In this document: piece after piece, positions 29,656-45,169 of the stretch
How positions within the stretch are numbered: position 1 is the stretch's first letter
Layout: the number at the start of each line of letters is the position of its first letter
From: Candidatus Poribacteria bacterium
GTDB lineage: Bacteria; Poribacteria; WGA-4E; WGA-3G
DNA length: 64,000 nucleotides
Reading direction: 5' to 3'
NCBI GenBank assembly: GCA_965214045.1
Contig: OZ243935.1
Span: 2,794,904-2,858,903, forward strand
Made by a program: the position numbers and the translations under genes
The notes under the pieces: model-generated
The model's database searches: none
The model's input: only the letters and a program-made list of their open reading frames with translations
Told to the model about the DNA's origin: nothing

Positions 29656-30888
29656 TCAACTCATTTTCCGATCTTTCGGTGCAGTCACTTCAAAATCGAA
29701 ACCGCCAAGCACATCGCCGTTCACCTCCACCTCGAAACGGTGCCAACCGAGACACGCCTTTCCGTCCGCGTGTTGCTTGAGCGATGGCAACGGAAACAAA
29801 GATTTTTCGTAAGCGACGCGTTGTCTCGGCTTCAACTTCCTCTGACTGAGACGATAACGTTTCCGCGTGATGTGTCCTGTCGGACGCTTGTAAGCGACTG
29901 CGTAGTACGTAAGAATCGTTTGCTCAACATCGGAGTCGCTCTGTAGACTGAACGAAAAATCGAAAACTTCATTGATTGGAAGGAGCTGACGTTCAGGTTT
30001 CAGTTCGGTGAGTGAGAGGTCTGCCTTACCTAACTTCGGGACGGCTCCCATACCGAGGAGTTTAAAAGCGCGTGCATCCCCAATCTTCACCTGATATTTC
30101 AGAGCCTGCCGGAGAATTTTCTTCATCTCTGACCGTCCGTCCTGATCCCAGCGTTCCAGTGTGGTATATCCTACTTCTGGATAGTCCTTGACGATGTCGC
30201 GTATATCAGTAGCGACCTGTTCCCGAACACGCGCATCTGAATCGTCTTTGAGTATTTCCAGAAGTGCCAAGATCGGTTGCGGATCTTGGATAAACGGACG
30301 CAGCCATTTTTGGTGTATGCCGCGTGTGCAGAGCGATGCCGCCACGAACAGACGAAGGTTTGCGTTGTCGTCCGTGACCCATTCACCGAAACGTTCAAAG
30401 CACCGATTCGGATCTTCGATGATAAACGCACGGATATCACCGCCACGGGTACACCGATGTTTTGAGAGTTCGCGGAAAGCGTCCAACGATGCATCGAAAT
30501 CCGCGGGTCCGTGAAGACTGACAAAGTGCGCAATCGGTCGCAGGCTCGTCTCGACTTCGGGAGTCGGGTGTCGCATCGGTTCCGGTGGAGCCTCGGTCTC
30601 GACAAACACCATCAAGATAGCGAGTGCATCGGAATAGTCCTCTGGTAGATACTGACGCAGGACGCGACCGATAGCTTTCGTCACGTTATAGATCGTCTGA
30701 CCTTCCATCTCCGTCTGGACATCCGAAACGAAGGCAGGCACATCGAACTCAGGATAGATCCGCTGAATCTTTTTACCGATGACCAAACCGTCCTGTGTAA
30801 GATCGAATAATATGCGTTGATCTCTCATGTTCAATAGATTTTTTTCTTTGGATGTCGGTGATTTCCGTGAATGTGAGAATGATAACAT
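29656..30888 (-). CDS. HEAT/ARM-repeat protein, possibly DNA-alkylation-repair-like (AlkD-like). Start uncertain; the internal Met at ~30828 is plausible.
   Basis: 410 aa. Helical repeat composition. Weak resemblance to DNA alkylation repair enzyme family proteins. No catalytic motif recognised. Confidence 0.3.
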   Translation of the reverse strand: MLSFSHSRKSPTSKEKNLLNMRDQRILFDLTQDGLVIGKKIQRIYPEFDVPAFVSDVQTEMEGQTIYNVTKAIGRVLRQYLPEDYSDALAILMVFVETEAPPEPMRHPTPEVETSLRPIAHFVSLHGPADFDASLDAFRELSKHRCTRGGDIRAFIIEDPNRCFERFGEWVTDDNANLRLFVAASLCTRGIHQKWLRPFIQDPQPILALLEILKDDSDARVREQVATDIRDIVKDYPEVGYTTLERWDQDGRSEMKKILRQALKYQVKIGDARAFKLLGMGAVPKLGKADLSLTELKPERQLLPINEVFDFSFSLQSDSDVEQTILTYYAVAYKRPTGHITRKRYRLSQRKLKPRQRVAYEKSLFPLPSLKQHADGKACLGWHRFEVEVNGDVLGGFDFEVTAPKDRKMS

Positions 30889-31225: not shown

Positions 31226-31308
31226 AAAAACGATTGTAGAGGGTTTTTGCTTGGGTGTTTCTTGGTTTTGTGCCTACCCGCACATTACTTCAGGTTTTCG
31301 TCAGCGAT

Positions 31309-31506
31309 TGTTGCTTATTCCCAAGCCCCAGCGGGGCAGCATGTCTGTAGCAACGCGTCCGACCGCACGTCTAAAGCCCCAGCGGGGCGACATGTCTGTA
31401 GCAGCGCGACCAGTCCTATTTTCCCAAGCCCCAGCGGGGCGGCATGTCTGTAGCAGCGCGATCAGTCCTATTTCCCAAGCCCCAGCGGGGCGACATGTCT
31501 GTAGCT
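31309..31506. repeat. Tandem array (3.5-4 units, period ~51-52 bp) of AAGCCCCAGCGGGGCGACATGTCTGTAGCAGCGCG with ~16-bp TCCTATTTCCC-type linkers
   Basis: Copies at 31323, 31374, 31426 and 31477. Linkers are nearly identical to each other, so this is not CRISPR-like. Same family as 5994-6086. Confidence 0.8.
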
Positions 31507-31806
31507 GTAAGGCTTCAGATGCGTTTATTTGTGAGTCTCCGTTGTGGAAAAAAATAATTTGGCGGAAAGTGTAACATTTTTCGTTGCAACGATTATTGGT
31601 TTTCTTTTTTCTGAAAACATAACATACTATAAGGGTAACATGTATAAAGGCAAAGAGTCAAGGGCACATTAGATTTTTGAATTGTCTAAATTCGGATTAC
31701 CATAGACTTTGGGGGGGATTTTTGCTGGAAGTTTTACATACAGGAAAAAGATGCTACGATTCTACAAACGGTGGCATCTTTTCTGTTGTGAGATTGGCTG
31801 CTGAGT

Positions 31807-32892
31807 TCAACTTAACGCTTGTTGTAGACTTGCTTCAACCCCTTCAGCTGGTAATAGGCGTATCATTTCATCTGCCATCGCTTTTCCACCTACTTCTCCT
31901 GTTCTTCCTTCGTATTCACCATCCTTGCGCCAATCTATTTCTGATGCAGCTTTTACTAAACGTCTGACGTTGTCCCAATTCATACCTATTTCCTCGTTGT
32001 AGCTCCGCGAGAAAATTTGTGCCCCGGTATACGACCAAGCTATCAGACCTGTGAGCTCAAGGAGTTTGTACTCAAAAGCGTTTCTGCGACTGCCCTTTAT
32101 TTCAGGATCATCGAGTTTTTCAATATCTGCCCATTCTTCATGAAGATGGTCAGCGATTATCGTCCAGAGCTCGGACATGTACTCGGTTTTCTGATCAACA
32201 TCTAAATCTTGAACTCCTCCGAGTCCAAATAGGCGCGTAACTTGCTTTGCCACACTATGGAGAGCAAATAGATGTGTACGCTGCATTGATGTCTTTGTAA
32301 TCCTTCCTTTAAAGGGACTGTCATCTCGTTCATTAAGTTCCCATCCGACTTGTGCTTCTGGTTTCCCTTCAAGGTAAGCTGTTAGAGGTTTGGGTACTCC
32401 TTTTTGGTTGTCGTTGACATTGATGAATTCTTTTGCTTCTTGTTCAGGAGTGAGATTTGGAAGCAGAATGAAGGAAACTTCGCGTACATCACTGTCAGAT
32501 TCATACAGCTCTACAAAGCCACCAAGACGATGTTGTCCATCAAGGATAGCGGCTTTTCCTCGAATGATAAGTTTTCCAGTATTTTGTCCTTCCCCATTTG
32601 GTTTGAATTGCCAGTTACCACGTCCGGAGAGCAGAACGGGTGGAACTATACTATCGGGGTATTCTGTGAGAAACTTCGCGACCTGTTTCATACGAGTTAG
32701 TGAACCAGGTCTCTGGTAACCCTCTTCCACGATTTCATTAAGACAAGTTTTACGACTGGATTCAATAACGGGGACAAATGTCACGTTCTTAACCTTATCA
32801 GATTTAATTGTTCCAAATAAGTACTTCTGATTGCCTTGAGTCTTCAGAATGACTCCTTTTATTTCCCCAATTGTATTCGTTTTATTAGTCAT
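31807..32892 (-). CDS. DGQHR-domain protein (DndB-like)
   Basis: 361 aa. Contains AILDGQHRLGG, the signature of the DndB/DGQHR family. Last gene of the minus-strand defense cluster. Confidence 0.7.
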   Translation of the reverse strand: MTNKTNTIGEIKGVILKTQGNQKYLFGTIKSDKVKNVTFVPVIESSRKTCLNEIVEEGYQRPGSLTRMKQVAKFLTEYPDSIVPPVLLSGRGNWQFKPNGEGQNTGKLIIRGKAAILDGQHRLGGFVELYESDSDVREVSFILLPNLTPEQEAKEFINVNDNQKGVPKPLTAYLEGKPEAQVGWELNERDDSPFKGRITKTSMQRTHLFALHSVAKQVTRLFGLGGVQDLDVDQKTEYMSELWTIIADHLHEEWADIEKLDDPEIKGSRRNAFEYKLLELTGLIAWSYTGAQIFSRSYNEEIGMNWDNVRRLVKAASEIDWRKDGEYEGRTGEVGGKAMADEMIRLLPAEGVEASLQQALS

Positions 32893-32936
32893 TGATTAAT
32901 TCTCCTCAATGCAAGTGCGGTGTCGGTTTAACGGAA

Positions 32937-33227
32937 TCATTCTAACGTTTCAACCTCGTAAGGTGCCATCTGTGTCGCATCCGTTTTGCGGACGCGAAAT
33001 TGGATGTCCTTAAAGAGTCCATCATTATTTTTTCTCAAGCTTTCAAGGGATTCCCCTAAGGAACGTGCTGATATGTAGAAGATATACTCAAGGTCATTGC
33101 TGATTTTTTTTACGTGAAGAATAGGGGCATACCCCTTAAATGTCAAAACAACATCCGGTTCAGAGATAATTTCCAATTCTATCCATCCGGTCCCGACTTT
33201 TAAAGGCGGTGGTAATTCTTGAGGCAT
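32937..33227 (-). CDS. Hypothetical small protein (96 aa) within the defense cluster
   Basis: ORF only. 8-bp gap to the upstream gene. No recognisable motif. Confidence 0.3.
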   Translation of the reverse strand: MPQELPPPLKVGTGWIELEIISEPDVVLTFKGYAPILHVKKISNDLEYIFYISARSLGESLESLRKNNDGLFKDIQFRVRKTDATQMAPYEVETLE

Positions 33228-33235
33228 AGTTTCTC

Positions 33236-33751
33236 CTATAGATCATGCAGTGCTTCGGCAAGCTGATTTTGAATCGCTTGTTCCTCTGTAACAGGTTCGG
33301 ATTGCAGTAGGTCGTCAAGGGCATCAGAAAGGTTCCATATCGGGCTTTCGGAGCCTTCGTTTAGCATTTTCACGATGTGGGGGACACCTGCAGCTGCCAG
33401 ACCGTTGGCGATGTCCATCATGCGACGCGGCTTAAGGACAACCTCTAAGTTTCCTTCAACGGCTATCGCAATTAACATGATCGCTTGCGCCTGCCAGCCA
33501 TCCGTGTCAAAAATATTACCGCTAATGATGCTAACAGTGTCCTTTTTCTTTTTTGTTAAATGCATCGGTTTAAGATTCTGACGCGCTGCCAGCGAGAGTC
33601 CGGCAAACCAGAGATCCACCTTTCGTGGAAACGGAGTCTTAGCGGCTTTCGCACCTGCTCCCGTTTGGCAGTAATGATCGTAGTCATCCCGCTGTATAGT
33701 AGGTGATATGATTTGCATATTGCGAAAAGGATTATCGTAGTGTTGTGCCAT
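33236..33751 (-). CDS. Hypothetical protein (171 aa) within the defense cluster
   Basis: ORF tightly packed between the DndD-like and the 96-aa gene (9-bp and 8-bp gaps). No recognisable motif. Confidence 0.35.
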   Translation of the reverse strand: MAQHYDNPFRNMQIISPTIQRDDYDHYCQTGAGAKAAKTPFPRKVDLWFAGLSLAARQNLKPMHLTKKKKDTVSIISGNIFDTDGWQAQAIMLIAIAVEGNLEVVLKPRRMMDIANGLAAAGVPHIVKMLNEGSESPIWNLSDALDDLLQSEPVTEEQAIQNQLAEALHDL

Positions 33752-33760
33752 AGTGATCTC

Positions 33761-35884
33761 CTAAGATTCCGGCTGGATTTCTACCTCAACATCCGTGCGT
33801 CGCTTGCAGCGTTCACATTCTCCGAGGTCCTGGCACTCACACCGGAGTGCCTGCGGTTCATTTATATGTGGATCGTTTACTAATATAGTGGGGTAGTGTG
33901 CCGAATTTGTAATGGTGATGATACGTCCTGCTTCATCTGCTATAATATCTTCACAGTCTTTAATTTCGGAACGCGTCAGAAAGAGGATCAGTTGTGCACT
34001 TTCTTGAACAGCTGTTTTGAGAACGGAACGTTTGACAAACCCGTCCATCATTCCGAGGGGTGTATCAATCACGTTTGGTGCTATAACTTCACTGACTTTG
34101 GTGAGGGCGAGAATAAACGCTACCGTCAATGCTCTCCGAGAGGCACCATTTAAATCTTCCCTGGGGTTCAAAGCGCGTTTATTGGGTCCATAGACGAGAA
34201 TATTAAAATCTGGACTGATTTCTGCTTTCTGGATGATTGCTCCCTGTTCAGCGTCCGCGCCGATCATTTCCAGAAAAAATGTGTTCATCAACCGACTCAC
34301 TTCTTGCAATTCTTCGTTTGTGATTCGTTCGTATGAATTTTCAAGGATTTGCTCTATATCGCGCGTGGCATCTAATCTGGCTAATATTCCTTCCCCTCTT
34401 CTCTGTTTACTTATAAGGTTATTATGTGTTGCTGTTAAGGATCTCTGACTTTTTTTCAGGCGGTCAAGTTCTATTTCGTGCTCTATATGGGTACCGTTCA
34501 AAGAATCGCGTTGAGCAATATAGTCTTGCTTAGTGGCGCGAAGTTCTTGAATGTCGGTATCCCCTATACTCTCAAGTTGGACTTCCAATACGCTGAGTTC
34601 TTTTTCCAATTCTACGCGTCGAGCTTCAAGTTCATCGCGAAGGATTGCGTTTCTCTTGTATTCAGCGATCCAGTGTTGCTCATGGCTAATCTCTATCGGT
34701 TTCAGCTCCAATGAACCGAAATAAAGACCGGTCAGACGTGTTTGAAGTTCATCTGTTTCCCGACTCTCGCTAATGAGTCGTTCGATATGCGCTCTGCGCC
34801 GCTGTCCGTCTTCCGAGTGTTGATCCAGGGACTCTCCACAAATGCAGGCAGGACCTGTGAGTCGTTCTTCAAGCACAGGAATCGTTGTTTTCGGCAGTTT
34901 ACCCTGGTTGCTGAGTTCATCCAATTTCTCAAAACTTTTTTCCAAAACCGGGGCGAGCAGATCTCGGAATAGCGGCGGCTTTCTGAAGAATTGTGACTGC
35001 TCAGAAACCAGTTTTTCCTCTTGATTTTTGATTCTTTTTAGTTCTGCTTCTGATTTTTGCAGTCCGCGATTAAGTTCTTCTTGGTCCCCCTTAAGCAACG
35101 CTGCTTCAATGTCTTTATCAATTTCCGTTAGACTGTGATTGACTGCATCAAATTGAAGTTTCGCATCATCTCTTTCCTTTTCAAGACGTTCAACCTTTTC
35201 ATCTATCTCCCCCAATTCTGTAGCGATTTCGACAAGTTCTGTATCGGTTCCGATATTCTTTGAATCTCTATTGAGTCCAGCCATTGTCTTTTTCAAGTGA
35301 TCGAGAGCAGTCTCAATCACATCAAGGCCTAACAATGATTGAATGGCTTCCTGAACCTGTTTACGCTTATCTGTTCGTGAGTCTGCTTCAATGAAACTCA
35401 GTGCCCTGTCTCCGTCGGTGAAAAATACTTCACGCAAATTAGAGGGGACCAGGAGTCTGGCGATCTGTGCATCTGGTGTAGGTATTGGGGTGCTCCCAGT
35501 TTCTGTCAGTTCAAACAATTCTATTTTCGGGTTTTGTCTGAGCCCCTCGGTTGTCTCCTCTACGGAACGAATGAGGCAGTAGCGACTTGTCTTATTTCTA
35601 TTTGCCTCTGATGCAGGTGTTTCAAAATCGACTTGCACAGATATCGGAATTGCTTGACCATCAGGGACATCCCAATCAATTGGAAATAGTCGGTGTCCTC
35701 TACCTTTATCCGGTAGGGCATCATCGCCGTAGAGAGCCCATTGTAGCGCGTTTAAAATGGTCGTTTTTCCGCTCTCATTGGAGGCGCGAATGACCGTGAG
35801 TTTTCTGTCGTCACTGGTCGAAAAATCTAATCTTAGGTCTCGTAGCAGTCGAAAGTTTTGAAATCTTGCCCTGATGAGTTTCAT
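33761..35884 (-). CDS. DndD-like SMC/ABC-type ATPase
   Basis: 707 aa. N-terminus MKLIRARFQNFRLLRDLRLDF...LTVIRASNESGKTTILNALQWALYGD matches the DndD/AAA_23 Walker A region. Long coiled-coil middle. C-terminal signature/D-loop region. Confidence 0.65.
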   Translation of the reverse strand: MKLIRARFQNFRLLRDLRLDFSTSDDRKLTVIRASNESGKTTILNALQWALYGDDALPDKGRGHRLFPIDWDVPDGQAIPISVQVDFETPASEANRNKTSRYCLIRSVEETTEGLRQNPKIELFELTETGSTPIPTPDAQIARLLVPSNLREVFFTDGDRALSFIEADSRTDKRKQVQEAIQSLLGLDVIETALDHLKKTMAGLNRDSKNIGTDTELVEIATELGEIDEKVERLEKERDDAKLQFDAVNHSLTEIDKDIEAALLKGDQEELNRGLQKSEAELKRIKNQEEKLVSEQSQFFRKPPLFRDLLAPVLEKSFEKLDELSNQGKLPKTTIPVLEERLTGPACICGESLDQHSEDGQRRRAHIERLISESRETDELQTRLTGLYFGSLELKPIEISHEQHWIAEYKRNAILRDELEARRVELEKELSVLEVQLESIGDTDIQELRATKQDYIAQRDSLNGTHIEHEIELDRLKKSQRSLTATHNNLISKQRRGEGILARLDATRDIEQILENSYERITNEELQEVSRLMNTFFLEMIGADAEQGAIIQKAEISPDFNILVYGPNKRALNPREDLNGASRRALTVAFILALTKVSEVIAPNVIDTPLGMMDGFVKRSVLKTAVQESAQLILFLTRSEIKDCEDIIADEAGRIITITNSAHYPTILVNDPHINEPQALRCECQDLGECERCKRRTDVEVEIQPES

Positions 35885-36126
35885 TGCGTAACCTCTGTCG
35901 TTGGGTTATCTGTATCACGTTTCCTCGCGAGAAAATCGCCAGCCTTATGGCATGCTTGGTTTACCTGTTTTTGAATGGTTGTTCTTTGTGCTTGATGTTC
36001 TCTCTCGGCACTGAGGATTTCAACGATTGCCTCAAGCACTTTTTTCCTGTAGCCGTCGCATCTTTCCTCAATAGATTCACATTCATTGAGAATCATCTTT
36101 ACCATTTTTTCCTTGTTATATGACAT
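35881..36126 (-). CDS. Hypothetical small protein (81 aa), translationally coupled (ATGA overlap) to the DndD-like ATPase
   Basis: ORF only. 4-bp overlap with the downstream gene start. Confidence 0.3.
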   Translation of the reverse strand: MSYNKEKMVKMILNECESIEERCDGYRKKVLEAIVEILSAEREHQAQRTTIQKQVNQACHKAGDFLARKRDTDNPTTEVTQ

Positions 36127-36137
36127 AATCTCCTCCG

Positions 36138-38282
36138 TTATACGTAAAGGGTTCTAACCAGTTGGTCGATGTGGCTTAAGGGTCCATCAGGTCTACCAAA
36201 GTTCTTCGCAAGGTAAGCGAACGCTTGAATCCGTTTGAGTTCGGACGCTATTAAGGCATGTGCGCGAGTGTCCAGATTATCCAAATCCGGGGGTAGCGCG
36301 ATAAAATCGTGGATTTCACTGTGCGTTTTGCTGGTCTTACTACACGTGCGGAGCAGCCTCCCGCGCCGCTGCGTCCACTGCCGTTCCACTGTGGTGCTCG
36401 CCAAAATAAAAGCCTTCTCAATTTCTGGGATATTCACGCCTTCATCAAGTACACGCTTTGCGGTTAAGACACGCAGCGTTCCTTCTTGAAAGGACTGAAT
36501 AATCTGTGCGGTTTTTTTACGGTCACCTGTTTCTTTGTAGGTCAGTTGATGAAACAGCACCCCGTGTCTGTTCAGTAAGGCGTTAACAGCTTTCAGCTGC
36601 TGCGGTGCCTTGTCAGAGGCGTAAATCAAGGTATGCTGGAGTTTGTTGAAATCTTCGCGTTGCGTTAAGACATCTTCTAACACGGCGACCTTATTTTCTG
36701 CGTTCTCCAAAAGTGCCCGACGGTCTCGGAGCAATTTCATAAGGTACACATTGTCCGCATCCTCGTTCTCCTGCATCCACGCATTTTTCCTGATCTCTTC
36801 CGTGAGAGCATACCACTCCTCCATTTCGTCCTCTGTGAGTTCTACCGGATGCACGTAGTATTCGTATTCAACGAGGCATCTGCCGATGGCTTCCTCAAGT
36901 GTGAACTCAAAAACAATAGGTCCGAAAAACGCAAATAACTGATCCGTGCCTTCTTCATCGTATTGACGGATCGGAGTTGCGGATAAACCTAATCGATAAT
37001 CGAAAAATTCAGGCGGATCGGTGATGAATCCTTCACTTCCGAGATTGTGGACTTCATCAGCAATGAGTAAGGTTTTACAATCGAATTTCTTCAGTTCCTC
37101 TTTAAAATTAGGACTGCAAAGGGTCTTATGAGAAACAATGGCGATCTCAATGTCGCTACTACCGAATCGAAGCCTCCGCTCAAGTTTCTTAAGTTCAGCT
37201 GCACGTCCCCTTGCTCCATTCACCTCAGTCAGATTAACTGGCTTCAGCCCAAAGGATGAAATTTCATCACACCACTGTTGGATGAGGGGTATATAGGGCG
37301 CGGCAACGACGATAAGCAGTGGTTTCTCCGTCTCATAGAGTCTATGTGCACAAATCATGGCAGCGATGGTTTTTCCTGAACCTGTTGCCATTTCTAATAT
37401 CCCTTGATGACCGCCTTCACACCACGCTTTCACAGCTCTCCCTTGATGTTCAAAGTCACCCTCCTCAAATTCCAGATATGATGGTATTGTAAATGAAGGA
37501 CGGGGCACCTTAAAGTCGTAAGTTGTAGAAGCTTCCTGTATAGCAGCAGCTTCCGCTTTGTAGAGTGTGTGAAAGTCGTCCTCTGTCGGTGGGATATCGG
37601 AGTTATAGGTTTTCAACAGATTTTCCTTAATTGCTTGTGGTATCGGAATCACAGTGCACGTCTCATCGTAATTCGTCCAAAATTGCTTGAACTGATCGCA
37701 CAATTTTTCTGTAATATAGTATTGGTTACCATCTTCCCACGATTTGGAGATGGACATCTGCTCAATATTTTTCTGAATACCGGCGTAGGTCATATTGCTG
37801 GAGCCGTGTGCTGCGATAACATCGTCACCCTCGTGAAAGAGCCAGACCTTGGGGTGGAAAAGCGCATCTTTCATCAAAGCGATTTTGATTTCCACGCGTC
37901 TGTGACGCAGCATCCATGAGAGGCATTTCAGCGTATGCTGCGCAATAGCGTTTTCGGTAACAACAAAATCTTCTAAAGCTGTGTTGACGATATCCTCTAC
38001 GGAGGCTACGCCTTCTGCTATTGCCGCTTTGTCTTCAGGGCGGAGCAGCGGACTGATAATCAGACGCAAACTTTCGTCTGCACAGTTTATGAACGTTGCT
38101 AATCCTGGCGCAAGGGACACCAGAATTTCACTCGAAAAGAAACCTATCATGCAATCAACATGCGTAGCAGACTGAAAGCACGGAATTAGGACATCTTCTG
38201 TCGCGGGATCCTTTGGCAACATGTAAAGGGGTCGAATATCGGGTATCGCCCGAAGTGTCATCCCATGATTTTTTCTTTTCAT
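36138..38282 (-). CDS. Phospholipase-D-family nuclease domain fused to an SF2 (DEAD/DEAH) helicase
   Basis: 714 aa. N-terminal HxK...GSxN (HPKVWLFHEG...GSSNMTYAG). Helicase motifs I MATGSGKTIAAM, II IADEVHN, VI QRRGRLLR. Confidence 0.65.
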   Translation of the reverse strand: MKRKNHGMTLRAIPDIRPLYMLPKDPATEDVLIPCFQSATHVDCMIGFFSSEILVSLAPGLATFINCADESLRLIISPLLRPEDKAAIAEGVASVEDIVNTALEDFVVTENAIAQHTLKCLSWMLRHRRVEIKIALMKDALFHPKVWLFHEGDDVIAAHGSSNMTYAGIQKNIEQMSISKSWEDGNQYYITEKLCDQFKQFWTNYDETCTVIPIPQAIKENLLKTYNSDIPPTEDDFHTLYKAEAAAIQEASTTYDFKVPRPSFTIPSYLEFEEGDFEHQGRAVKAWCEGGHQGILEMATGSGKTIAAMICAHRLYETEKPLLIVVAAPYIPLIQQWCDEISSFGLKPVNLTEVNGARGRAAELKKLERRLRFGSSDIEIAIVSHKTLCSPNFKEELKKFDCKTLLIADEVHNLGSEGFITDPPEFFDYRLGLSATPIRQYDEEGTDQLFAFFGPIVFEFTLEEAIGRCLVEYEYYVHPVELTEDEMEEWYALTEEIRKNAWMQENEDADNVYLMKLLRDRRALLENAENKVAVLEDVLTQREDFNKLQHTLIYASDKAPQQLKAVNALLNRHGVLFHQLTYKETGDRKKTAQIIQSFQEGTLRVLTAKRVLDEGVNIPEIEKAFILASTTVERQWTQRRGRLLRTCSKTSKTHSEIHDFIALPPDLDNLDTRAHALIASELKRIQAFAYLAKNFGRPDGPLSHIDQLVRTLYV

Positions 38283-38318
38283 ATTGGTTTACAGGTATAG
38301 AAATTGATGTGATTAAAA

Positions 38319-39572
38319 TCAGTGTTGGTTTGCCCCTTTGCGAGCGTTACATTGTCTGCAAAGTGTTTGGGCGTTTTCAAGAGTTGTTTTCCCACCATCC
38401 GCGTGAGGAGTTATGTGATCAGCTTCCATTTTATCAAATTCGATTTTTTGGTTGCATCCTTGACAAGTCTCATTGTCTCTACGCCAAATCACAATTCGTT
38501 CGTCACGAGAGAAAGCACGTTGTGAGTCTTTTCGCACTAAGTGCTGGATGTCTCGGAGGAATCGTCTTTTATATACTTCATGTCGCTTTTCGAGGTTAGG
38601 TTTTGTCCCACCTGAGCGGATGAAAGCTTCAATGTAATCATACATATCTCTATCCCAAAGACTTTTGCCTGCAGCAAGTAATTCACTGGGATCTGATATA
38701 ACTGACCGCCTCTCTTCTTCAAAGGCAACGTAAAAATCAGCGAAGTCAATCTCGTGATCTCGGATAACATAGGACTTATTCATTTCCGAAATTAGTAAAT
38801 ATAAGTCTACAAAGCCCCACTTAACGTCCATGTCGGGAGGACGATTTTCCAAAACTTTTTCCATATATCCTAAGTGCCGTCGAACTTTTTTGGCAACAGA
38901 TCCATTGTGGTCAAAATTCTGATTATTCCTGTACATTTTGGTGAGACTCGGTGCCTTGACATCCGTTGGTCCTTGTGCTATCTCCAGACGCGTTACTACA
39001 GCGGCCAGGTCATGCCACCCAAATCTCTTTTCTGAAAGGAAGGTTAATGGAAAAACACGATGGTTATCTCCTAAGTTTGCTATGAAATCTCGCATTTTAC
39101 CCGGCATAGCGTTTCGTTTTTCTACAGGATTCAAAGACAGTCCTTCTTGCAATCTTAGAAAAAGATCTCGTATATCTAAATCTGATGCATCCTCAACCTC
39201 AACTAAATTAAGCTCAAATATTGCAAATTGATCCTGAATATCGCTTGGCAATTCTGAGAATTTCTTACCTGATAAGTCCCCAAAATTAGGTATGTCTCTT
39301 GATGCTTCACCCAGGACATACTGATCATCATGGAAATCCCAAATAGCATTCAGCCTTTGCTGTCCATCAACAACCTCATGCTCATACTCAGAATCAGACG
39401 ATACTCGGAGGTAAAATTTGGGCATATCATATTGTCGAAGTATTGAGTCAATAAGCAATTGCTTTTTTGCCTCATTCCAAACTGGAGTCCGCTGATACTG
39501 AGGTCTTGGATTTATCTTTGGCTTCCTTCTGGCAATTGTTTCAATTGTCCAATGTCTTGGTCGAGTTTTCAT
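38319..39572 (-). CDS. DUF262 (ParB-like, DGQQR motif) plus C-terminal HNH nuclease; GmrSD / SspE-like
   Basis: 417 aa. N-terminal VVDGQQRLNAI. C-terminal CQGCNQKIEFDKMEADHITPHADGGKTTLENAQTLCRQCNARKG. Confidence 0.65.
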   Translation of the reverse strand: MKTRPRHWTIETIARRKPKINPRPQYQRTPVWNEAKKQLLIDSILRQYDMPKFYLRVSSDSEYEHEVVDGQQRLNAIWDFHDDQYVLGEASRDIPNFGDLSGKKFSELPSDIQDQFAIFELNLVEVEDASDLDIRDLFLRLQEGLSLNPVEKRNAMPGKMRDFIANLGDNHRVFPLTFLSEKRFGWHDLAAVVTRLEIAQGPTDVKAPSLTKMYRNNQNFDHNGSVAKKVRRHLGYMEKVLENRPPDMDVKWGFVDLYLLISEMNKSYVIRDHEIDFADFYVAFEEERRSVISDPSELLAAGKSLWDRDMYDYIEAFIRSGGTKPNLEKRHEVYKRRFLRDIQHLVRKDSQRAFSRDERIVIWRRDNETCQGCNQKIEFDKMEADHITPHADGGKTTLENAQTLCRQCNARKGANQH

Positions 39573-39621
39573 GGGTCAGCCCTACTCCGATTGCATAAAT
39601 AGATTCTGTGCAGTAGAAATA

Positions 39622-40473
39622 TCACTTATGGCACGCCAAACACGGTTCCTCATCATCCTCATCGTCAAGCACATCCGTGAAGATTTGCACCAAACGTTGA
39701 TTCGGTCTCTCGGATCGCTTGGCGGCAAGGGCTGCTGTAGCCTCCGCCTTAATCTGCGCGACACGCTCCGGTCGCGACAACTCCGCTAAACTCTCGCCTT
39801 GACACCACGTGAATTGTTGATCTGTCCTGGCATTTTCATTAGGCTCTTCTTCATATTTCCTCGCGAGCGCAAAGAGATCAGGATGCTTTTCTAATAAGCC
39901 GACCCACTCGGCTTTACGCTGGAAGAAACAGAAATAACACCCGGAACGCGTCCGCCACTCGTAATACGTCGGAAGCCCGAGCCCGCTCTCCTCCAGAATC
40001 CGATAGACATCCTCTTTCGTGATGCCGTCCTCTTTGAACGGATACTTCGGTTCAATGTTCCGTAAATCCGTGGTTCTCAGCGGTTTGTAACCCGTCCTGT
40101 CTTCGTCTGCACGGATGGCGATGTAGTGATACGCTTTGTCTGCGCCGATGTATTCCTCGAAAGGTATGATTTTCAGGTTAGCTGTGCACCAGCGGACTTG
40201 GGAGGACGGCAAGAGCCCCCCGTATAAGGCTAACCAGTGGTCAAAACTGCGGTCTTCATTCGGATCCGGATTCATATTGAGACGGACAATCGGTTTGCCG
40301 AGATGCGCTTCTAACCGATCCAGGTATTCATACGTCTCTGGAAGTTCCTTACCTGTATCCGAGAAAAAGTATTCCATCTCTATTTCCGGTTTTTCTCTAC
40401 GCATGTAAACCGCGAGGGCGGAACTGTCTTTGCCGCCAGAGAGTCCGAGGACGTGTCGGATATTTTCTGCCAT
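39622..40473 (-). CDS. PAPS-reductase-family ATP pyrophosphatase (SspD/DndC-like)
   Basis: 283 aa. PP-loop LSGGKDSSALAVYM. C-terminal CxxC (CLACHK). Confidence 0.65.
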   Translation of the reverse strand: MAENIRHVLGLSGGKDSSALAVYMRREKPEIEMEYFFSDTGKELPETYEYLDRLEAHLGKPIVRLNMNPDPNEDRSFDHWLALYGGLLPSSQVRWCTANLKIIPFEEYIGADKAYHYIAIRADEDRTGYKPLRTTDLRNIEPKYPFKEDGITKEDVYRILEESGLGLPTYYEWRTRSGCYFCFFQRKAEWVGLLEKHPDLFALARKYEEEPNENARTDQQFTWCQGESLAELSRPERVAQIKAEATAALAAKRSERPNQRLVQIFTDVLDDEDDEEPCLACHK

Positions 40474-40546
40474 GTCTCCTCCTACGAGTCAGTTGTGCAG
40501 AGGCGTATAAAACACGAGGCACAACCGAACAGGGTATGCTACGGTG

Positions 40547-43500
40547 TTAAATTGCCCTTTCGTTCTCAAATGCCTGCATCAGTTTTTGTGAGATACGCGC
40601 CAAAACAGCGAGTCGGAATCCGTGATTTTTCTCTGCGTCCAGTTCATCAAAAGCCGTCTCAATCGCGCGTTCCAATCCAACTGCCTGTGCCTCGGCAGTT
40701 GCGGGTAAAGTGACGACCTGTTCTTGTTCGGGTTGGTTTCGGGTTGTAATACCGATCCGAATCGCTTCACCTGTCGAGGTTTCAGTATGACCGGGTTGAT
40801 CGTAAGACACGGCTTCAAGGTGTCGGAACTTCCGTGCAAGATGTGAAAGATTATTTTGGAATTGGGCTTTATCTGTGTCTAACCATTTATCCGGCGGTTT
40901 TTTCGCGAGATAACTCGCGAGAGCGACAAGCCAGCTTTTGAAATCGTGTCCACCGCTATGGATGTTGATTAAGAATCCCTTGAGGTCGGTTTCGATCGCG
41001 ACCGGTAACAGGACTTCAGCTCTACAGACGAGGGCATCGCGGAGTGTCTCTGATGTGAGATCAAACGCTGTCGCTAACATCTCCTCAAGAGAATCCAATA
41101 GACGGTCGTATGCCTGATTTAACTCGGATAACGCCCCTTGCAGCGTCCCGAAAAATTGTGAAACGCCGTGGGGATCCGTTGCTGTCTCTGCCTTAAAAGC
41201 CGGGAACCCGAGTGCTGCTGGCAGCTGTTTAAAGAGGAGTTCATCAGGTTCGCGTGCATTTCCGAGGGTGGCACGGAGATTTTGAGCAGCTTCACTGAGT
41301 TCTTGCGTGGTCCGCGTGTACTGCGGGAGTTCGCTGATCGTCTGGACCAACGGCACGACAACCGTCAAGAGATCCGGTTTTTCAGAGGCTTCAGCGGTAT
41401 CGAGCGCGCCTAAAAATTGGGGGAACAGGTCGGCACGGATATCCGTCATCCGAAAACGTTTCAGTTCAAAGCGTTCTGGTCTTTTAATTAACCTTTCAAA
41501 GACGGGGATCGTCCAGTTCGGGATGAAGGATCCGTTTTCATAGAGGGCGATCTCTGTTTTGTAGTGAAGTATCACCGCACATAACAGGATAGGCAGCGGT
41601 CCCTCGCGGGCACCAATAGGCGGTTTCATCAGGTCTGTGTAGAGGTTAGGCAACGGCTGCCGTCTGTCTTCACACGTTTCAAGGAACTGCTCAATCGCTT
41701 CCCATATCGGTCGGACATCGTTTGTCGCGTCAGGTGAGGGCGGATGAAACCGCCACATATCCGATCCTGGAATTTGACGATGGATGCCTGTTTCTAAGAG
41801 AAGCGACCGGTAGATACTCATTTCAGCGGGGTAACCCTCTATACCGAGATTATCTTCGGCTTCCTTTTCAAGCATCGCTTGGATGAGTTTCCGCCTCGCG
41901 GTTGTAACAGCACCGGAGACTTTCCGTCTGTTAATGAGTTCGTGCCGAATCACAGGCGTTTTGGGGTAGACAGCATCGCAGATTTCTGAGAGATATCCAT
42001 TTCTCTCACGCAGCGACTTGATGGGGATCTCTTTTCCCTTATGATACCATTGACACGGATTGTCAGTACCGCCTTTACCTTTAAAGAGTGACGTTACTTC
42101 TTCAGATACACTGCGTTCCGCTTCTGAGGAACGGATTGCGAGTTCACGTCTGGCGGTTTTATCGCCTTCAAGTTCTTCCGTATTCTGCGAGACCCAGTGC
42201 AAACACGCAAGTTCTCTGACGGCACCGTATAGCGTATCTGTGGATGTTGGCATCGCAAGGAGTACCTCCTCGCGGCTTTCGAGGTTTTCACGTTTCGCTT
42301 TTTCGAGGATTTGCTTACCTTCGTTTTCATCCCCCGGCAATGCATAGAGCACAAGTCCATCTGCCGAATCAAGAGGTGCTGCGAGGGTATCCTCAAAGTT
42401 GTCAAGGTCTGTATAACGCACTGTGAAATAGCGGAGGGTGCCTTTCTCAAAAAGATGTCTGCGTGCGATGAGAGGGCGCGGCGGTATGAAATCTGACAAA
42501 TAGGTCATCAATCTTTCGTTTCGATTGAGCTGCCCTTCTGCATGCTGGAGCCGCTCTTCGATATTAATATCGCTGCCTTCCCAGAGCGCATAGGTCTTAT
42601 TATGCCGCCGATGGATCACAATTGAACGGGCTTGGATGTCTTCAAGTGTCCTGCTAAATTCCTCCTTAAATCCTGCCGTCTGATCGTCTAAAGCATAACG
42701 GAGGACCCCTTCTGAAGCGTTTAGGTTTCTACTGACTTCTCCGACAATCCCAAGCAGACCGATGGTTTTGATGAGTTTCACGAGCAGCGGCGATGGATCC
42801 GCCAATCGGTTGATAGCCATCTCAACTTCGAGCCACCGGTCCCCTTCGCGCGAGGTATAGAGTCGGTTTCCCAGACTGAGCTGGAGATAATCGTAGAGGT
42901 CGGGGATTGAAAACATCGGCAGCGTGTTCCCGTCATAAGACCGGTTTTCCAGAAAATCGCGGAGTCCATGCGGTTCAACTGCATTCAGGAAAGCAAAGAG
43001 AGAGCGTTCATTTTGTGCGAATTTTCGGAAAACGGGTCCGATGAGGAGTGCTACAGTTGGGTGAAGCGGTAGACAATTTCGGAGCAACTCGCGAAAGGCA
43101 GCCGCATCGCCGAATGGATTGAGATTGAGATCAGAGGCAGGCAGCAGCTGCAGGTCTCCGATACCTTCCGTGTCCTTGTTTTGGATAGCGGAGCCAATGA
43201 GTTGAAGGATTTGATCTGCCGGTTCCACGAAGGCGAGATCTTCAAACCGTCCTTGAACCTTTGCCCATTCCTCGCGTTGTGAGGCTGCTGCTCTGTTTGC
43301 ATAGTGTTCAAAAGCTTGATGCAAGATAGTCATGAAAAAGAGGGGTGTCTCTGCACTCCGTGTCGCAAATTCAGCGAGGGTTTGTAGCACAAACACATCG
43401 CCTTGCGCAGGATGTTGTGCGGCGTGTTCAAGGAACTTGCCAAGTTCGTCAACCACGAGTAACAAACCGCCACCGCCTTTTTTCTTGATTGTCAGTGTTG

Positions 43501-44056
43501 CAGATTCAAAAAGTGCTGTGACTTCAGTTGCTGACAAGGGATTGCCGTTTTTCTCTGTTTTCAAGAGTGCTTGGATGTCTTTTCGCAGGGAGTGTCTTGC
43601 GGTGATATGAAAGGTTTGAAGTCCGTGTTCTAATCCTTGCAAGAGGGCGTGTGTAATGGATGCGCGTTCGCCAGAGATAAGCACTGGACAAAAACCAACT
43701 GCCGTTTTTTCTCTGTTCCCGTTTAGGCTCAAAAAACGTTCGTATAATGGCGGATCGCTGTGTTTGAGTAATTTCAGAGCGTGTTTTGTTGTGGCGGTGT
43801 CAGTGTTTCCGAAGAGTTTTGCGGCGAAGAGTGCGAACGCAGATTTCCCCGCTCCGTAAGGACCCGTGAGGGACCACGCTTTTGATGTCGCCTCGTTCTC
43901 TCGTGCTGTGATAAGCCGAGCAAGGGTCTCCCGTGCTTTGACAGTCACAACGTAGCCATCTAAGGCGTTTTCGGTATAGAAATCGCGTGCCAGATGAACA
44001 GAACGTTGAAAGCGTTTGGTGATGTGAAAAATATCTGACAAGGGTGTGTTAGCCAT
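40547..44056 (-). CDS. Large P-loop ATPase (SspC/BrxC-like, DUF499-type)
   Basis: 1169 aa. Walker A LTGPYGAGKSAFALF (~aa 66). Walker B LLLVVDELGKF (~aa 210). 8-bp overlap with the upstream DUF4007 gene. Confidence 0.55.
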   Translation of the reverse strand: MANTPLSDIFHITKRFQRSVHLARDFYTENALDGYVVTVKARETLARLITARENEATSKAWSLTGPYGAGKSAFALFAAKLFGNTDTATTKHALKLLKHSDPPLYERFLSLNGNREKTAVGFCPVLISGERASITHALLQGLEHGLQTFHITARHSLRKDIQALLKTEKNGNPLSATEVTALFESATLTIKKKGGGGLLLVVDELGKFLEHAAQHPAQGDVFVLQTLAEFATRSAETPLFFMTILHQAFEHYANRAAASQREEWAKVQGRFEDLAFVEPADQILQLIGSAIQNKDTEGIGDLQLLPASDLNLNPFGDAAAFRELLRNCLPLHPTVALLIGPVFRKFAQNERSLFAFLNAVEPHGLRDFLENRSYDGNTLPMFSIPDLYDYLQLSLGNRLYTSREGDRWLEVEMAINRLADPSPLLVKLIKTIGLLGIVGEVSRNLNASEGVLRYALDDQTAGFKEEFSRTLEDIQARSIVIHRRHNKTYALWEGSDINIEERLQHAEGQLNRNERLMTYLSDFIPPRPLIARRHLFEKGTLRYFTVRYTDLDNFEDTLAAPLDSADGLVLYALPGDENEGKQILEKAKRENLESREEVLLAMPTSTDTLYGAVRELACLHWVSQNTEELEGDKTARRELAIRSSEAERSVSEEVTSLFKGKGGTDNPCQWYHKGKEIPIKSLRERNGYLSEICDAVYPKTPVIRHELINRRKVSGAVTTARRKLIQAMLEKEAEDNLGIEGYPAEMSIYRSLLLETGIHRQIPGSDMWRFHPPSPDATNDVRPIWEAIEQFLETCEDRRQPLPNLYTDLMKPPIGAREGPLPILLCAVILHYKTEIALYENGSFIPNWTIPVFERLIKRPERFELKRFRMTDIRADLFPQFLGALDTAEASEKPDLLTVVVPLVQTISELPQYTRTTQELSEAAQNLRATLGNAREPDELLFKQLPAALGFPAFKAETATDPHGVSQFFGTLQGALSELNQAYDRLLDSLEEMLATAFDLTSETLRDALVCRAEVLLPVAIETDLKGFLINIHSGGHDFKSWLVALASYLAKKPPDKWLDTDKAQFQNNLSHLARKFRHLEAVSYDQPGHTETSTGEAIRIGITTRNQPEQEQVVTLPATAEAQAVGLERAIETAFDELDAEKNHGFRLAVLARISQKLMQAFENERAI

Positions 44057-45032: not shown

Positions 45033-45159
45033 GCGAAAAGCAGGACGCGTCGAGCGTAACGCGGAACAATGAAAATAGCCCTTCGGTTAAGCGAGCGCGC
45101 GGGATAGCGGCAGCTGCAATAAAGGATTTATATTGTGTTTTACTTAATTTTTGTAAAGT

Positions 45160-45169
45160 GGGGGGGGGG
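45160..45169. repeat. G10 homopolymeric tract ~130 bp upstream of the defense operon start
   Basis: GTGGGGGGGGGGT read directly at 45160-45169 in the 460-bp intergenic region. Confidence 0.85.

What the first reader, a model, noticed from the sequence alone, without database searches (positions are those of the whole stretch)
31309..31506. 51-bp tandem repeat family built around a CCCC-AGC-GGGG hairpin, present at two separate intergenic loci (5994-6086 and 31309-31506)
The 35-bp core AAGCCCCAGCGGGGCGACATGTCTGTAGCAGCGCG is repeated four times here and twice at about 6.0 kb. The ~16-bp linkers are themselves conserved (TCCTATTTCCC), so this is not a CRISPR array (the unit is too regular and the spacers too short).

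It resembles REP/BIME-type or minisatellite elements. The two loci differ mainly in the tail (TAGAAAC versus TAGCAGC), which implies dispersal followed by local amplification. The array at 31.3 kb abuts the left edge of the defense island.
Basis: seen in the sequence. Interest (0 to 1): 0.5.

Follow-up and report, generated by a model that had tools for sequence, protein, structure and literature searches.

The report
REP-like hairpin repeats of Poribacteria
The repeat is one member of a very abundant family of small hairpin-forming repeats, comparable to the REP elements of E. coli, that fills the gaps between genes in Poribacteria genomes; in many bacteria the same repeats tightly flank a small single-strand-DNA transposase gene that was previously reported to have no such repeats.

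Summary
Six copies of AAGCCCCAGCGGGG lie at 6002/6053 and 31323/31374/31426/31477, all on the + strand (0.28 expected by chance), spaced 51-52 bp apart. There is no Rfam match.

It is not a local oddity. The same unit occurs in at least 119 8-kb blocks of Candidatus Poribacteria genomes (roughly 100 clusters per Mb) and in Bacteroidota, Verrucomicrobiota and Kuenenia. The unit is a 5-bp GC hairpin with a triloop and the tail CGRCATGTnT(A/G)TAG. The usual form is a head-to-tail doublet with 51-bp spacing. The window's four-copy array is an expanded doublet: five other Poribacteria lineages have a doublet, or what is left of one, at the same site.

80 metagenomic loci were chosen only because they encode a homologue of a small IS200-like Y1 HUH transposase (TnpAY1 subclass 1.2). 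76 of them carry these units, typically as [A> B> gene <B <A], at 6.1 per kb near the gene against 0.05 per kb further away. The 2018 survey of this protein family lists subclass 1.2 as having no REPs.

Verdict: a REP/BIME-type element, probably moved in trans by that enzyme. It is a new variant of a known kind. It lies at the edge of a variable defence-gene slot. Mobilisation is inferred, not shown.

The parts
31322..31353 (+). Unit 1 of the array: hairpin GCCCC-AGC-GGGGC at 31325-31337, tail AGCATGTCTGTAGCAAC. This is the most diverged copy.
   Evidence: Model R1 scores it 37.7 bits, E 1e-8. Sequence.
31354..31372 (+). Linker 1 (GCGTCCGACCGCACGTCTA). It is unlike linkers 2 and 3.
   Evidence: Sequence; alignment A2.
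31373..31404 (+). Unit 2: hairpin at 31376-31388, tail GACATGTCTGTAGCAGC.
   Evidence: R1 scores it 41.5 bits. It aligns to the intact copy at the orthologous site in L200.
31425..31456 (+). Unit 3: hairpin at 31428-31440. Together with its linker it is a near copy of unit 2 (2 substitutions and 1 indel in 52 nt), which indicates a recent tandem duplication.
   Evidence: R1 scores it 40.8 bits. Sequence.
31476..31507 (+). Unit 4, the terminal copy: hairpin at 31479-31491. Similarity ends after ...CTGTAGC.
   Evidence: R1 scores it 40.6 bits. Homology with L200 ends about 20 bp beyond it.
6001..6032 (+). First unit of the 6-kb doublet: hairpin at 6004-6016, tail TGACATGTGTGTAGAAAC.
   Evidence: R1 scores it 34.2 bits. 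Sequence.
6052..6083 (+). Second unit of the 6-kb doublet: hairpin at 6055-6067, tail GATATGTGTATAGAAAC.
   Evidence: R1 scores it 43.4 bits.
5887..6000 (+). Left part of a roughly 200-bp mosaic element that includes the 6-kb doublet. It is 84% identical to a copy in another Poribacteria species where the flanking genes are unrelated.
   Evidence: blastn against L078 6765-6955. The flanking proteins show no homology.
29656..30888 (-). Conserved Poribacteria core gene (homologues are about 390 aa). Its upstream intergenic region carries the array, and it anchors the orthology comparison.
   Evidence: 151 homologues, the best 91% identical; those that carry a source name are all from Candidatus Poribacteria. 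Synteny with the PhyH genes is kept in L200-L207.
31807..46385 (-). Phosphorothioate-type defence island to the right of the array: a DndB/DpdB-like gene, PbeC, PbeA, GmrSD-HNH, SspD, SspC, SspB and an HNH gene. This is context, not part of the repeat.
   Evidence: Pfam and PADLOC.

Best explanation
The two loci are copies of a high-copy, extragenic, REP-like repeat family of Candidatus Poribacteria.

**The unit.** Each unit is a 5-bp GC-rich hairpin with a 3-nt loop, followed by a conserved single-stranded tail CG(A/G)CATGTnT(A/G)TAG. The standard module is a head-to-tail doublet of about 85 nt: copy A with the full tail, a variable linker of about 22 nt, then copy B, which usually ends 8 nt after its hairpin at ACATGTG. 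The hairpins are 51 bp apart.

**What is shown.**
- The family is dispersed through Poribacteria genomes and also occurs in other phyla.
- The hairpin is maintained by compensatory changes.
- The same doublets flank, in inverted orientation ([A> B> gene <B <A]), the gene of a small Y1 HUH enzyme of TnpAY1 subclass 1.2, the sister group of the IS200/IS605 transposases. Tail variants match on the two sides of each gene.
- The 31.3-kb array lies at a site where related Poribacteria have a doublet or its remnant. It has grown to four units here by tandem duplication of unit plus linker.

**What is inferred.** The Y1 enzyme probably binds the folded hairpins on single-stranded DNA and cuts and rejoins next to them, as the IS608/ISDra2 TnpA and the E. 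coli TnpAREP enzymes do. That would spread doublets in trans while its own gene stays put. Once in place, arrays change length by slippage or unequal exchange. They may also act as break points for exchange of the neighbouring defence genes.

The copies in this window have no transposase nearby and are passive.
For: 92 of them are from Poribacteria MAGs of many species. That corresponds to about 100 clusters per Mb.

**Doublet form.** Hairpin-to-hairpin spacing is 48-55 bp with a mode of 51. Among same-strand chains there are 113 doublets, 97 singles, 2 triplets and one 4-copy chain, the window's.

**Hairpin under selection.** Compensatory stems occur within Poribacteria (GCACC/GGTGC five times, GTACC/GGTAC, GCGCC/GGCGC). 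Many more stem types carry the same tail in other lineages.

**Link to the enzyme.**
- Y1 genes lie next to the repeats in L032 (Poribacteria), L106 (Kuenenia) and L069 (Bacteroidales).
- The protein matches Pfam Y1_Tnp at 1e-28 and NCBIfam transpos_IS200 at 79.5 bits, above the cut-off of 55.
- In 80 metagenomic loci chosen only by Y1 homology, model R1 finds 294 hits in 236 kb.
- In the same loci, 76 of 80 have at least one unit. A + copy lies within 160 bp upstream in 51 of 73, and a - copy within 160 bp downstream in 48 of 78. Both are present in 39 of 71.
- Positions peak at 20-40 and 60-100 bp on each side of the gene. Density is 6.1 per kb within 300 bp against 0.05 per kb beyond 1 kb.
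- Lineage-specific tail variants are shared by the two flanks of a gene.
- The closest solved structures by sequence are the ISDra2 and IS608 TnpA transposases.

**Orthologous site.** A doublet or its remnant, in the same orientation, lies upstream of the conserved gene in L200-L207. The alignment with L200 shows the copy-number difference.
Against: - No Y1 gene lies in the window, and the source genome could not be retrieved. A cognate enzyme in this organism is therefore assumed from another Poribacteria genome (L032).
- In L032 the gene is flanked mainly by the GCTCC stem variant, with only one GCCCC copy nearby.
- No clean filled-versus-empty site pair was found, so the element's ends, its target and its movement are not demonstrated.
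- Dispersed copies in one genome share longer mosaic flanks rather than sharp ends.
- Orientation shows no link to local GC skew. A bias might be expected for insertion into the lagging-strand template.
- The arrangement near Y1 genes is not uniform: 16 of 73 loci have an opposite-strand copy upstream.
- The loci from the first scan were chosen for carrying the repeat, so the three Y1 genes found there are an ascertained sample. The metagenome test does not share that bias.
Confidence: 0.75

Rival explanations
1. The repeats are host-function elements rather than mobile DNA. They could be binding sites for a DNA-binding protein (the tail contains the palindrome ACATGT, and GACATGTC in the window). 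Alternatively they could be RNA hairpins that stabilise or end transcripts, as described for E. coli REPs. On this view the Y1 association is secondary.
For: - Hairpin spacing is strictly 48-55 bp while the linker sequence is free, which suits a protein that reads two sites.
- A doublet has been kept at the same site across several Poribacteria lineages.
- REPs are known to bind IHF, gyrase and Pol I and to affect mRNA stability (background of PMC6006769).
- This explanation is compatible with the main one.
Against: - There is no orientation preference relative to genes: 52 co-oriented, 34 anti-oriented, 16 convergent and 17 divergent.
- No terminator-like site is found at either locus, and no T run follows the hairpin.
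- Folding energy of the array is no better than that of shuffles (z +0.4 and +0.6).
- It does not explain the 120-fold enrichment next to Y1 genes or the matched variants on both flanks.
Confidence: 0.12
2. The repeats are the ends of an ordinary IS200/IS605-type insertion sequence and its deleted derivatives, that is, an autonomous transposon family rather than a REP system.
For: - The enzyme passes the NCBIfam IS200 equivalog cut-off and is closest to the ISDra2 and IS608 TnpA.
- The two hairpins of a doublet are in direct orientation, like the left and right ends of IS608.
- The right edge lies 8 nt after hairpin B, close to the 10 nt at the IS608 right end (the IS608 figure is from general knowledge of Barabas et al. 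2008).
Against: - Around the gene the repeats are inverted, not direct, which is the REPtron layout.
- Subclass 1.2 genes are low copy (mean 1.7 per genome), and copies within a genome are only 36% identical. The survey found that they generally lack typical IS200 terminal structures (PMC6006769).
- No tnpB gene was seen beside them.
- The repeats far outnumber the gene.
Confidence: 0.08
3. The repeats form a CRISPR-like or other guide-RNA array, or a tandem antitoxin RNA, in which the ~22-nt linkers carry the information.
For: The layout is regular, with a repeat of about 29 nt and a variable segment of about 22 nt. The 31.3-kb array lies beside defence genes.
Against: - There are no cas, tnpB or toxin genes beside the arrays.
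- Most loci are doublets with a single linker.
- The same linker recurs at five places in one genome, and linkers 2 and 3 of the window array are duplicates.
- There are hundreds of loci per genome.
- Rfam gives nothing, even at E<=10.
Confidence: 0.03

Closest known systems
REP / BIME elements with their RAYT (TnpAREP) genes, arranged as REPtrons (E. coli, Pseudomonas, Stenotrophomonas)
   Same: - A short hairpin repeat that is extragenic and present in hundreds of copies.
- It occurs alone, in pairs and in clusters, and is mosaic with other short motifs.
- A low-copy Y1 HUH gene is flanked by inverted copies.
- Repeat variants track the gene lineage.
- Head-to-tail dimers and tandem reiteration are also recorded for GTAG REPs (PMC3733652).
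   Different: - The hairpin is only 5 bp.
- The conserved (A/G)TAG lies 3' of the hairpin after 9-10 nt, not as GT[AG]G at its 5' foot.
- The basic module is a direct doublet with fixed 51-bp spacing, not an inverted pair (REPIN).
- The enzyme belongs to class 1 (Y---Q--HH motif), not class 2 (Y---NP). It scores 35 bits against the NCBIfam REP_Tyr_transpos model, whose cut-off is 80.
- The hosts are Poribacteria, Bacteroidota, Planctomycetota and Verrucomicrobiota.
TnpAY1 subclass 1.2 (Quentin, Siguier, Chandler and Fichant 2018, PMC6006769)
   Same: The enzyme next to the repeats has the subclass signature: HuH DHIH, W motif WQ, Y motif YIENQEKHH / YIQNQVEHH, about 150-157 aa, and a conserved C-terminal tail.
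   Different: The paper's table gives 'REP: no' for this subclass and says its members generally lack typical IS200 terminal structures. It reports the subclass mostly from Cyanobacteria and Bacteroidetes. Here the genes are tightly flanked by hairpin doublets, and the set includes Poribacteria and Kuenenia.
IS200/IS605 family ends and their miniature derivatives (IS608, ISDra2)
   Same: - The enzyme is the nearest relative by sequence.
- Recognition is expected to be of a folded hairpin on one DNA strand, with cleavage a few nucleotides away.
- The two hairpins of a doublet point the same way, like a left and a right end.
   Different: - The gene is not enclosed by directly oriented ends.
- No tnpB gene was seen beside it.
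- The gene is low copy while the repeats are abundant.
- The left and right cleavage sites are unknown.

Membership tests
REP / BIME (canonical) | Short palindromic (hairpin) unit of 20-65 nt | tested here: met
   The 13-nt hairpin is paired in 99% of cells across 115 doublets, with compensatory changes.
REP / BIME (canonical) | High copy number, dispersed, mostly between genes | tested here: met
Density is about 100 clusters per Mb in Poribacteria blocks. Most copies are intergenic. The window's own genome could not be surveyed beyond 64 kb, where there are 2 loci.
REP / BIME (canonical) | GT[AG]G tetranucleotide at the 5' foot of the hairpin | tested here: not met
   The bases 5' of the hairpin are (T/A)A. 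The conserved T(A/G)TAG lies 3' of the hairpin, 9-10 nt away.
REP / BIME (canonical) | Basic unit is two REPs in inverted orientation (BIME / REPIN) | tested here: not met
   Poribacteria copies are head-to-tail doublets. Inverted pairs of doublets occur in Hymenobacter (L103) and in Saprospirales (L112).
REPtron (Y1 gene plus cognate REPs) | A Y1 HUH gene flanked by copies of the genome's repeat in inverted orientation | tested here: met
   39 of 71 unbiased Y1 loci have + copies upstream and - copies downstream. 76 of 80 have at least one copy. L032 and L152 were read directly. This could not be tested in the window's own genome.
REPtron (Y1 gene plus cognate REPs) | The enzyme is a class 2 TnpAREP / RAYT (Y---NP motif; NCBIfam REP_Tyr_transpos) | tested here: not met
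   REP_Tyr_transpos scores 35 bits against a cut-off of 80, while transpos_IS200 scores 79.5 against a cut-off of 55. The Y motif is YIENQEKHH. E. coli RAYT is absent from the PDB hits.
REPtron (Y1 gene plus cognate REPs) | The enzyme cleaves and rejoins its repeat on single-stranded DNA | not testable with these tools
   This needs biochemistry. The catalytic HuH and Y residues are present in all three genes that were aligned.
TnpAY1 subclass 1.2 | HuH DH[IV]H, W motif WQ, Y motif Y---Q--HH, about 148 aa | tested here: met
   Alignment A3 compared with Table 1 of PMC6006769.
IS200/IS605 insertion sequence | tnpA enclosed by left and right subterminal hairpins in the same orientation; multiple near-identical copies | tested here: not met
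   The flanks are inverted. Copy number per genome was not measured here; the literature gives a mean of 1.7 copies with 36% identity between them.
CRISPR array | Repeats of 24-48 bp separated by unique spacers of similar size, usually with cas genes | tested here: not met
   Linkers are about 22 nt. Linkers are duplicated within the array and between dispersed loci. There are no cas genes.
Any Rfam family | Match to a curated covariance model | tested here: not met
   There are no hits at gathering score over the whole window and none at E<=10 over 31250-31560.

The most novel reading that the evidence does not exclude
The 51-bp-spaced doublet may be the minimal mobile unit of an unrecognised REP class: a left-end-like hairpin A plus a right-end-like hairpin B, bound together by a dimer of the enzyme. 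Its cognate enzyme would be TnpAY1 subclass 1.2, a group so far described as having no associated repeats and no known role. The system would span at least five phyla and would have expanded to the order of a thousand hairpins per genome in the sponge symbionts Poribacteria. There its copies mark the borders of exchangeable defence-gene slots.
Probability: 0.4. Interest if true: 0.65.

Novelty: new variant of a known kind. Interest (0 to 1): 0.55.

Why it matters
- **A testable substrate for an orphan enzyme group.** Subclass 1.2 of the Y1 HUH family has no known substrate or role, and the reference survey lists it as lacking REPs. A conserved hairpin-plus-tail doublet abutting both ends of its gene gives a direct, testable candidate substrate.
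- **Reach of the REP/RAYT relationship.** If confirmed, this relationship would extend to the sister group of the IS200 transposases and to phyla where it has not been described.
- **Practical value for Poribacteria genomics.** A repeat at roughly 100 clusters per Mb affects assembly, strain typing and the reading of intergenic regions.
- **A possible marker of gene exchange.** The repeat's position at the border of a defence-gene slot that differs between lineages makes it a candidate recombination break point.

Tried and rejected
1. **Third hairpin.** I tested a possible helix between CATGTn and the start of the linker. Only 43% of cells were paired, no better than with slid partners, so I dropped it.
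2. **Larger RNA or DNA fold of the array.** Energy is no better than that of shuffles.
3. **Intrinsic terminator.** No sites were found at either locus.
4. **Rfam.** No match at either threshold.
5. **Gene neighbours of the repeats.** Clustering 870 ORFs gave only PhyH, GFO/IDH/MocA, WD40, TPR, ABC and similar families. An IS5-type DDE transposase appears in 6 loci but is not consistently adjacent.
6. **Orientation against local GC skew.** No association: odds ratio 0.96, p = 1.
7. **Exact-match look-ups of four window proteins.** None are on record, so the source genome and read-level copy-number variation could not be examined.
8. **Literature.** No paper in the library holds the hairpin string, none links Poribacteria with REPs, and there is no later work on subclass 1.2.
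9. **First regex scan of the Y1 loci.** It was too strict (81 hits). I replaced it with the covariance model and a calibrated weight-matrix scan.
10. **Coding repeat.** The + strand ORF at 31251-31574 that spans the array is an artefact. Family spacings of 48-55 bp show no preference for multiples of three beyond the mode.

Full report
**1. The observation**

Reading the sequence shows four head-to-tail units at 31323-31507 and two at 6002-6083, all on the + strand.

- The 14-nt core AAGCCCCAGCGGGG occurs exactly six times, against 0.28 expected by chance.
- Tandem Repeats Finder gives period 51, 3.7 copies and 85% matches for 31318-31505.
- Each unit is a hairpin GCCCC-AGC-GGGGC followed by G(A/G)CATGT(C/G)TGTAG.
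However, the exact 35-nt core occurs only once, copy 4 stops matching after 29 nt, and only linkers 2 and 3 are alike.
- The window has no tRNA genes. It has no Rfam match at gathering score, and none at E<=10 over the array.

**2. It is a large dispersed family**

I scanned one genome per species for AAGCCCCAGCGGGGNNNNATGT. 92 of them come from Candidatus Poribacteria MAGs of many species, often with several blocks per genome. The rest come from Bacteroidota (Hymenobacter, Chitinophagaceae, Saprospirales and others), Verrucomicrobiota, Candidatus Kuenenia, an Acidobacteriota MAG and unclassified MAGs.

- Same-strand neighbours are spaced 48-55 bp apart, with a mode of 51 (47 of 77 pairs).
- Allowing five mismatches, there are 113 doublets, 97 singles, two triplets and one four-copy chain, which is the window's.
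- With a calibrated scan, Poribacteria blocks hold 314 units in 163 clusters. Counting clusters beyond the one that triggered each block gives about 100 clusters per Mb. This is a rough figure that assumes random placement.
- The window shares other short repeats with these genomes. The gene next to the array has 151 homologues, and every one that carries a source name is from Candidatus Poribacteria; the best is 91% identical. The window is therefore from a Poribacteria genome.

**3. Anatomy of the module**

I aligned 115 doublets (A2) and computed an information profile. Together they give the following layout:

| Part | Sequence |
|---|---|
| Before hairpin A | (T/A)A |
| Hairpin A | 5-bp stem, 3-nt loop |
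| Tail of A | G(A/G)(C/T/A)ATGTnT(A/G)TAG(A/C)A |
| Linker | about 20 variable nt, pyrimidine-rich at its 3' end |
| Before hairpin B | AA |
| Hairpin B | 5-bp stem, 3-nt loop |
| Tail of B | GACATGTG |

Information drops to background after the tail of B. The right edge is thus 8 nt after hairpin B, and the left edge about 3-4 nt before hairpin A.

- Both hairpins are paired in more than 99% of cells. Compensatory changes occur at two stem positions: GCACC/GGTGC five times, GTACC/GGTAC and GCGCC/GGCGC.
- A suspected third helix between the tail and the linker was not supported (43% of cells paired).
- The array as a whole folds no better than shuffled sequence, as DNA or as RNA (z +0.4 and +0.6).
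- No terminator-like site is present at either locus.
- Orientation relative to flanking genes is nearly even: 52 co-oriented, 34 anti-oriented, 16 convergent and 17 divergent. Orientation is also unrelated to local GC skew.
- Spacings are not restricted to multiples of three, so the + strand ORF at 31251-31574 across the array is an artefact.

These results argue against a structured RNA, a terminator and a coding repeat.

**4. Mosaic structure and dispersal**

- The 6-kb doublet is part of a roughly 200-bp element (5887-6090). It is 84% identical to a copy in another species (L078), where the neighbouring genes are unrelated.
- In one genome (CBDBMC010000001.1), five doublets at positions from 0.13 to 2.75 Mb share the same linker and the same right-hand flank. 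Four of them also share a long left flank that contains a direct repeat of a ~35-nt motif.
- In other loci, a second hairpin motif that begins with GTAG (GTAGGTCGGGCATCTTGCCCGAC) abuts the left side of the doublet.

The doublet therefore travels with its linker, often inside larger composites. This is the 'mosaic' character of BIMEs. No sharp ends could be defined from these comparisons.

**5. The associated enzyme**

Clustering the ORFs that neighbour the repeats showed only the expanded metabolic and repeat-protein families of Poribacteria.

I then searched all six-frame ORFs with IS608 TnpA and E. coli RAYT sequences written from memory. These served only as probes, and the hits were verified independently. 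The search found a Y1 gene at L032 7231-7701 on the minus strand.

- It matches Pfam Y1_Tnp at E 1e-28.
- It scores 79.5 bits against NCBIfam transpos_IS200 (cut-off 55) but only 35 bits against REP_Tyr_transpos (cut-off 80).
- Homologues lie beside the repeats in Candidatus Kuenenia (L106) and in a Bacteroidales MAG (L069).
- In L032 the gene is flanked on both sides by doublets of a stem variant (GCTCC...GGAGC), in inverted orientation, with one GCCCC copy further out.

Those loci had been chosen for carrying the repeat, so I ran the reverse test. A metagenome scan with the protein alignment found 574 relatives. 80 loci were kept purely on protein similarity of 52-71%.

- The covariance model R1, built from 101 units, found 294 hits in those 236 kb. 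In the window it found only the six known copies.
- A weight-matrix scan was calibrated so that shuffled sequence gives at most one hit. It found units in 76 of 80 loci.
- A + copy lies within 160 bp upstream in 51 of 73 loci, and a - copy within 160 bp downstream in 48 of 78. Both are present in 39 of 71.
- Positions peak at 20-40 and 60-100 bp on either side of the gene.
- Density is 6.1 per kb within 300 bp of the gene, against 0.05 per kb beyond 1 kb.

The typical layout is [A> B> gene <B <A]. I confirmed it by eye in L152, where hairpin B ends about 10 nt before the start codon.

Stems vary widely between lineages (GCTCC, GCGCC, GTCCC, ATCCC, GGCCC, ACCCC, GCTTC and others). The tail also varies by lineage (CATGT, CATAT, CCTGT, ACTGT, CATCT). 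The two flanks of a given gene nevertheless carry the same tail variant. This is the co-variation expected of an enzyme and its cognate repeat. Long head-to-tail arrays also occur beside these genes: five copies in L148, and eight at a 50-bp period in L186.

**6. Comparison with what is known**

By its motifs the enzyme belongs to TnpAY1 subclass 1.2 of Quentin et al. 2018. It has HuH DHIH, W motif WQ, Y motif YIENQEKHH and 157 aa (compared with Table 1).

- That survey describes the subclass as low copy, mostly from Cyanobacteria and Bacteroidetes, and generally without typical IS200 terminal structures. Its table gives 'REP: no'.
- The automatic search in that paper looked for GT[AG]G at the 5' foot of a hairpin. 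The present elements lack this feature, which would explain why they were missed.
- I found no later paper on the subclass in the library, and no paper containing the hairpin sequence.
- By sequence the nearest solved structures are the ISDra2 and IS608 transposases. The E. coli RAYT is not among the hits.
- Head-to-tail REP dimers and tandem reiteration are already known for GTAG REPs.

The element therefore works like a REP with its REPtron but fails two defining features of the canonical family: the position of the tetranucleotide and the class of the enzyme. It also differs in that its basic unit is a direct rather than an inverted pair.

**7. The two loci in their setting**

Both lie between co-directional minus-strand genes.

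- The 6-kb doublet lies 55 bp beyond the stop codon of an aminoglycoside 3-N-acetyltransferase gene.
- The 31.3-kb array lies 300 bp beyond the stop codon of a DndB/DpdB-like gene. That gene ends a phosphorothioate-type defence island made of PbeC, PbeA, GmrSD-HNH, SspD, SspC, SspB and an HNH gene.
- The array is also about 430 bp upstream of a conserved Poribacteria gene.

Orthologous loci from other Poribacteria keep that gene and the PhyH genes after it. Upstream of it they hold different genes:

| Locus | Genes in the upstream slot |
|---|---|
| L200 | type ISP restriction-modification enzyme |
| L201 | PhD/PIN toxin-antitoxin pair |
| L202 | an HATPase protein |
| L203-205 | a PAPS-reductase-like gene and two SBD-HNH genes |
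| L207 | a DUF2283 gene |

Every one of these loci has units in the same orientation between the conserved gene and the variable slot. L202, L203-205 and L207 have doublets. L200 has one intact copy plus one decayed copy interrupted by 40 bp. L201 has a single variant.

The alignment with L200 shows that its two copies correspond to units of the window array. Homology ends about 20 bp beyond the array on the defence side. The doublet at this site is therefore old and inherited. The window's four copies are an expansion, and the near identity of units 2 and 3 with their linkers points to a recent tandem duplication.

At this one site different lineages carry different stem variants (GCCCC-AGC, GCTCC-AGC, ACCCC-GTA), yet the two copies of each doublet carry the same or nearly the same stem. 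This suggests homogenisation or replacement, and I cannot explain it further.

**8. Verdict**

- **Shown:** the repeat is real. It belongs to a high-copy hairpin repeat family. The family is tied to a subclass-1.2 Y1 gene in a REPtron-like layout across several phyla. The 31.3-kb array is an expanded copy of a conserved doublet at the border of a variable defence slot.
- **Inferred:** the enzyme moves the doublets on single-stranded DNA. The doublet may act as a left-end-plus-right-end unit for an enzyme dimer. The arrays may serve as exchange break points.
- **Not established:** the ends, the target and any movement of the element; the presence of the enzyme in this organism; and any effect on transcripts.

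Noticed in passing
window 25888-26119: A 122-bp unit is repeated 1.9 times at 95% identity. Each copy contains a perfect sigma-70-type promoter consensus (TTGACA, 17 nt, TATAAT) in AT-rich sequence, upstream of nothing obvious.
   Followed up: partly
window 28303-28426 and 31183-31224; also L019 425-480, L200 4420-4535: A second dispersed element of about 120 bp has inverted ends (..ATAGTTCGGTAATTC ... GAAATTACCGAATTAAATT) and looks like a miniature inverted-repeat element. A half copy lies between the array and the conserved gene.
   Followed up: partly
window 11778-11834; 29442-29512; 49179-49232: Three further short stretches are 85-93% identical to unrelated Poribacteria loci (L063/L050, L087, L022), so more repeat families exist in this genome.
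   Followed up: no
window 31807-46385: The window carries a phosphorothioate defence island that combines SspBCD with PbeA, PbeC, a DndB/DpdB-like gene, a GmrSD-HNH gene and a further HNH gene. The slot it occupies, upstream of the conserved 390-aa gene, holds different defence genes in each Poribacteria lineage examined.
   Followed up: partly
L020 700-1800: The same Poribacteria genome set has a second, different Y1 gene that scores below cut-off against the RAYT model (REP_Tyr_transpos E 4e-14, 52.7 bits against a cut-off of 80). It is flanked by canonical REPs with GTAG at the foot of the hairpin (AGTAGTAGGCACGCTCCGCGTGCC), so two repeat-enzyme systems coexist.
   Followed up: partly
L203 2585-2666, L207 2414-2494, L202 1780-1861, window 31322-31507: At one orthologous site, different lineages carry different stem and loop variants of the doublet, yet the two copies within each doublet carry the same or nearly the same stem. 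This points to homogenisation or replacement at a fixed site.
   Followed up: no
L152 1977-2003: The gene-proximal hairpin B ends about 10 nt before the Y1 start codon, where a ribosome-binding site would be. This could allow the enzyme to control its own expression.
   Followed up: no
L186 1415-1798; L148 2716-2951: Long head-to-tail arrays of the unit lie next to Y1 genes: eight copies at a 50-bp period in L186 and five at 51 bp in L148. The window's four-copy array is therefore not exceptional.
   Followed up: partly
L200 1019-1100 and 4602-4720: In the closest relative, the type ISP restriction-modification gene is bracketed on both sides by units in the same orientation. The window's island has a copy only on one side.
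   Followed up: no
window 31251-31574 (+): A 107-codon open frame runs through the array. It results from the GC-rich repeat lacking stop codons and should not be annotated as a gene.
   Followed up: yes
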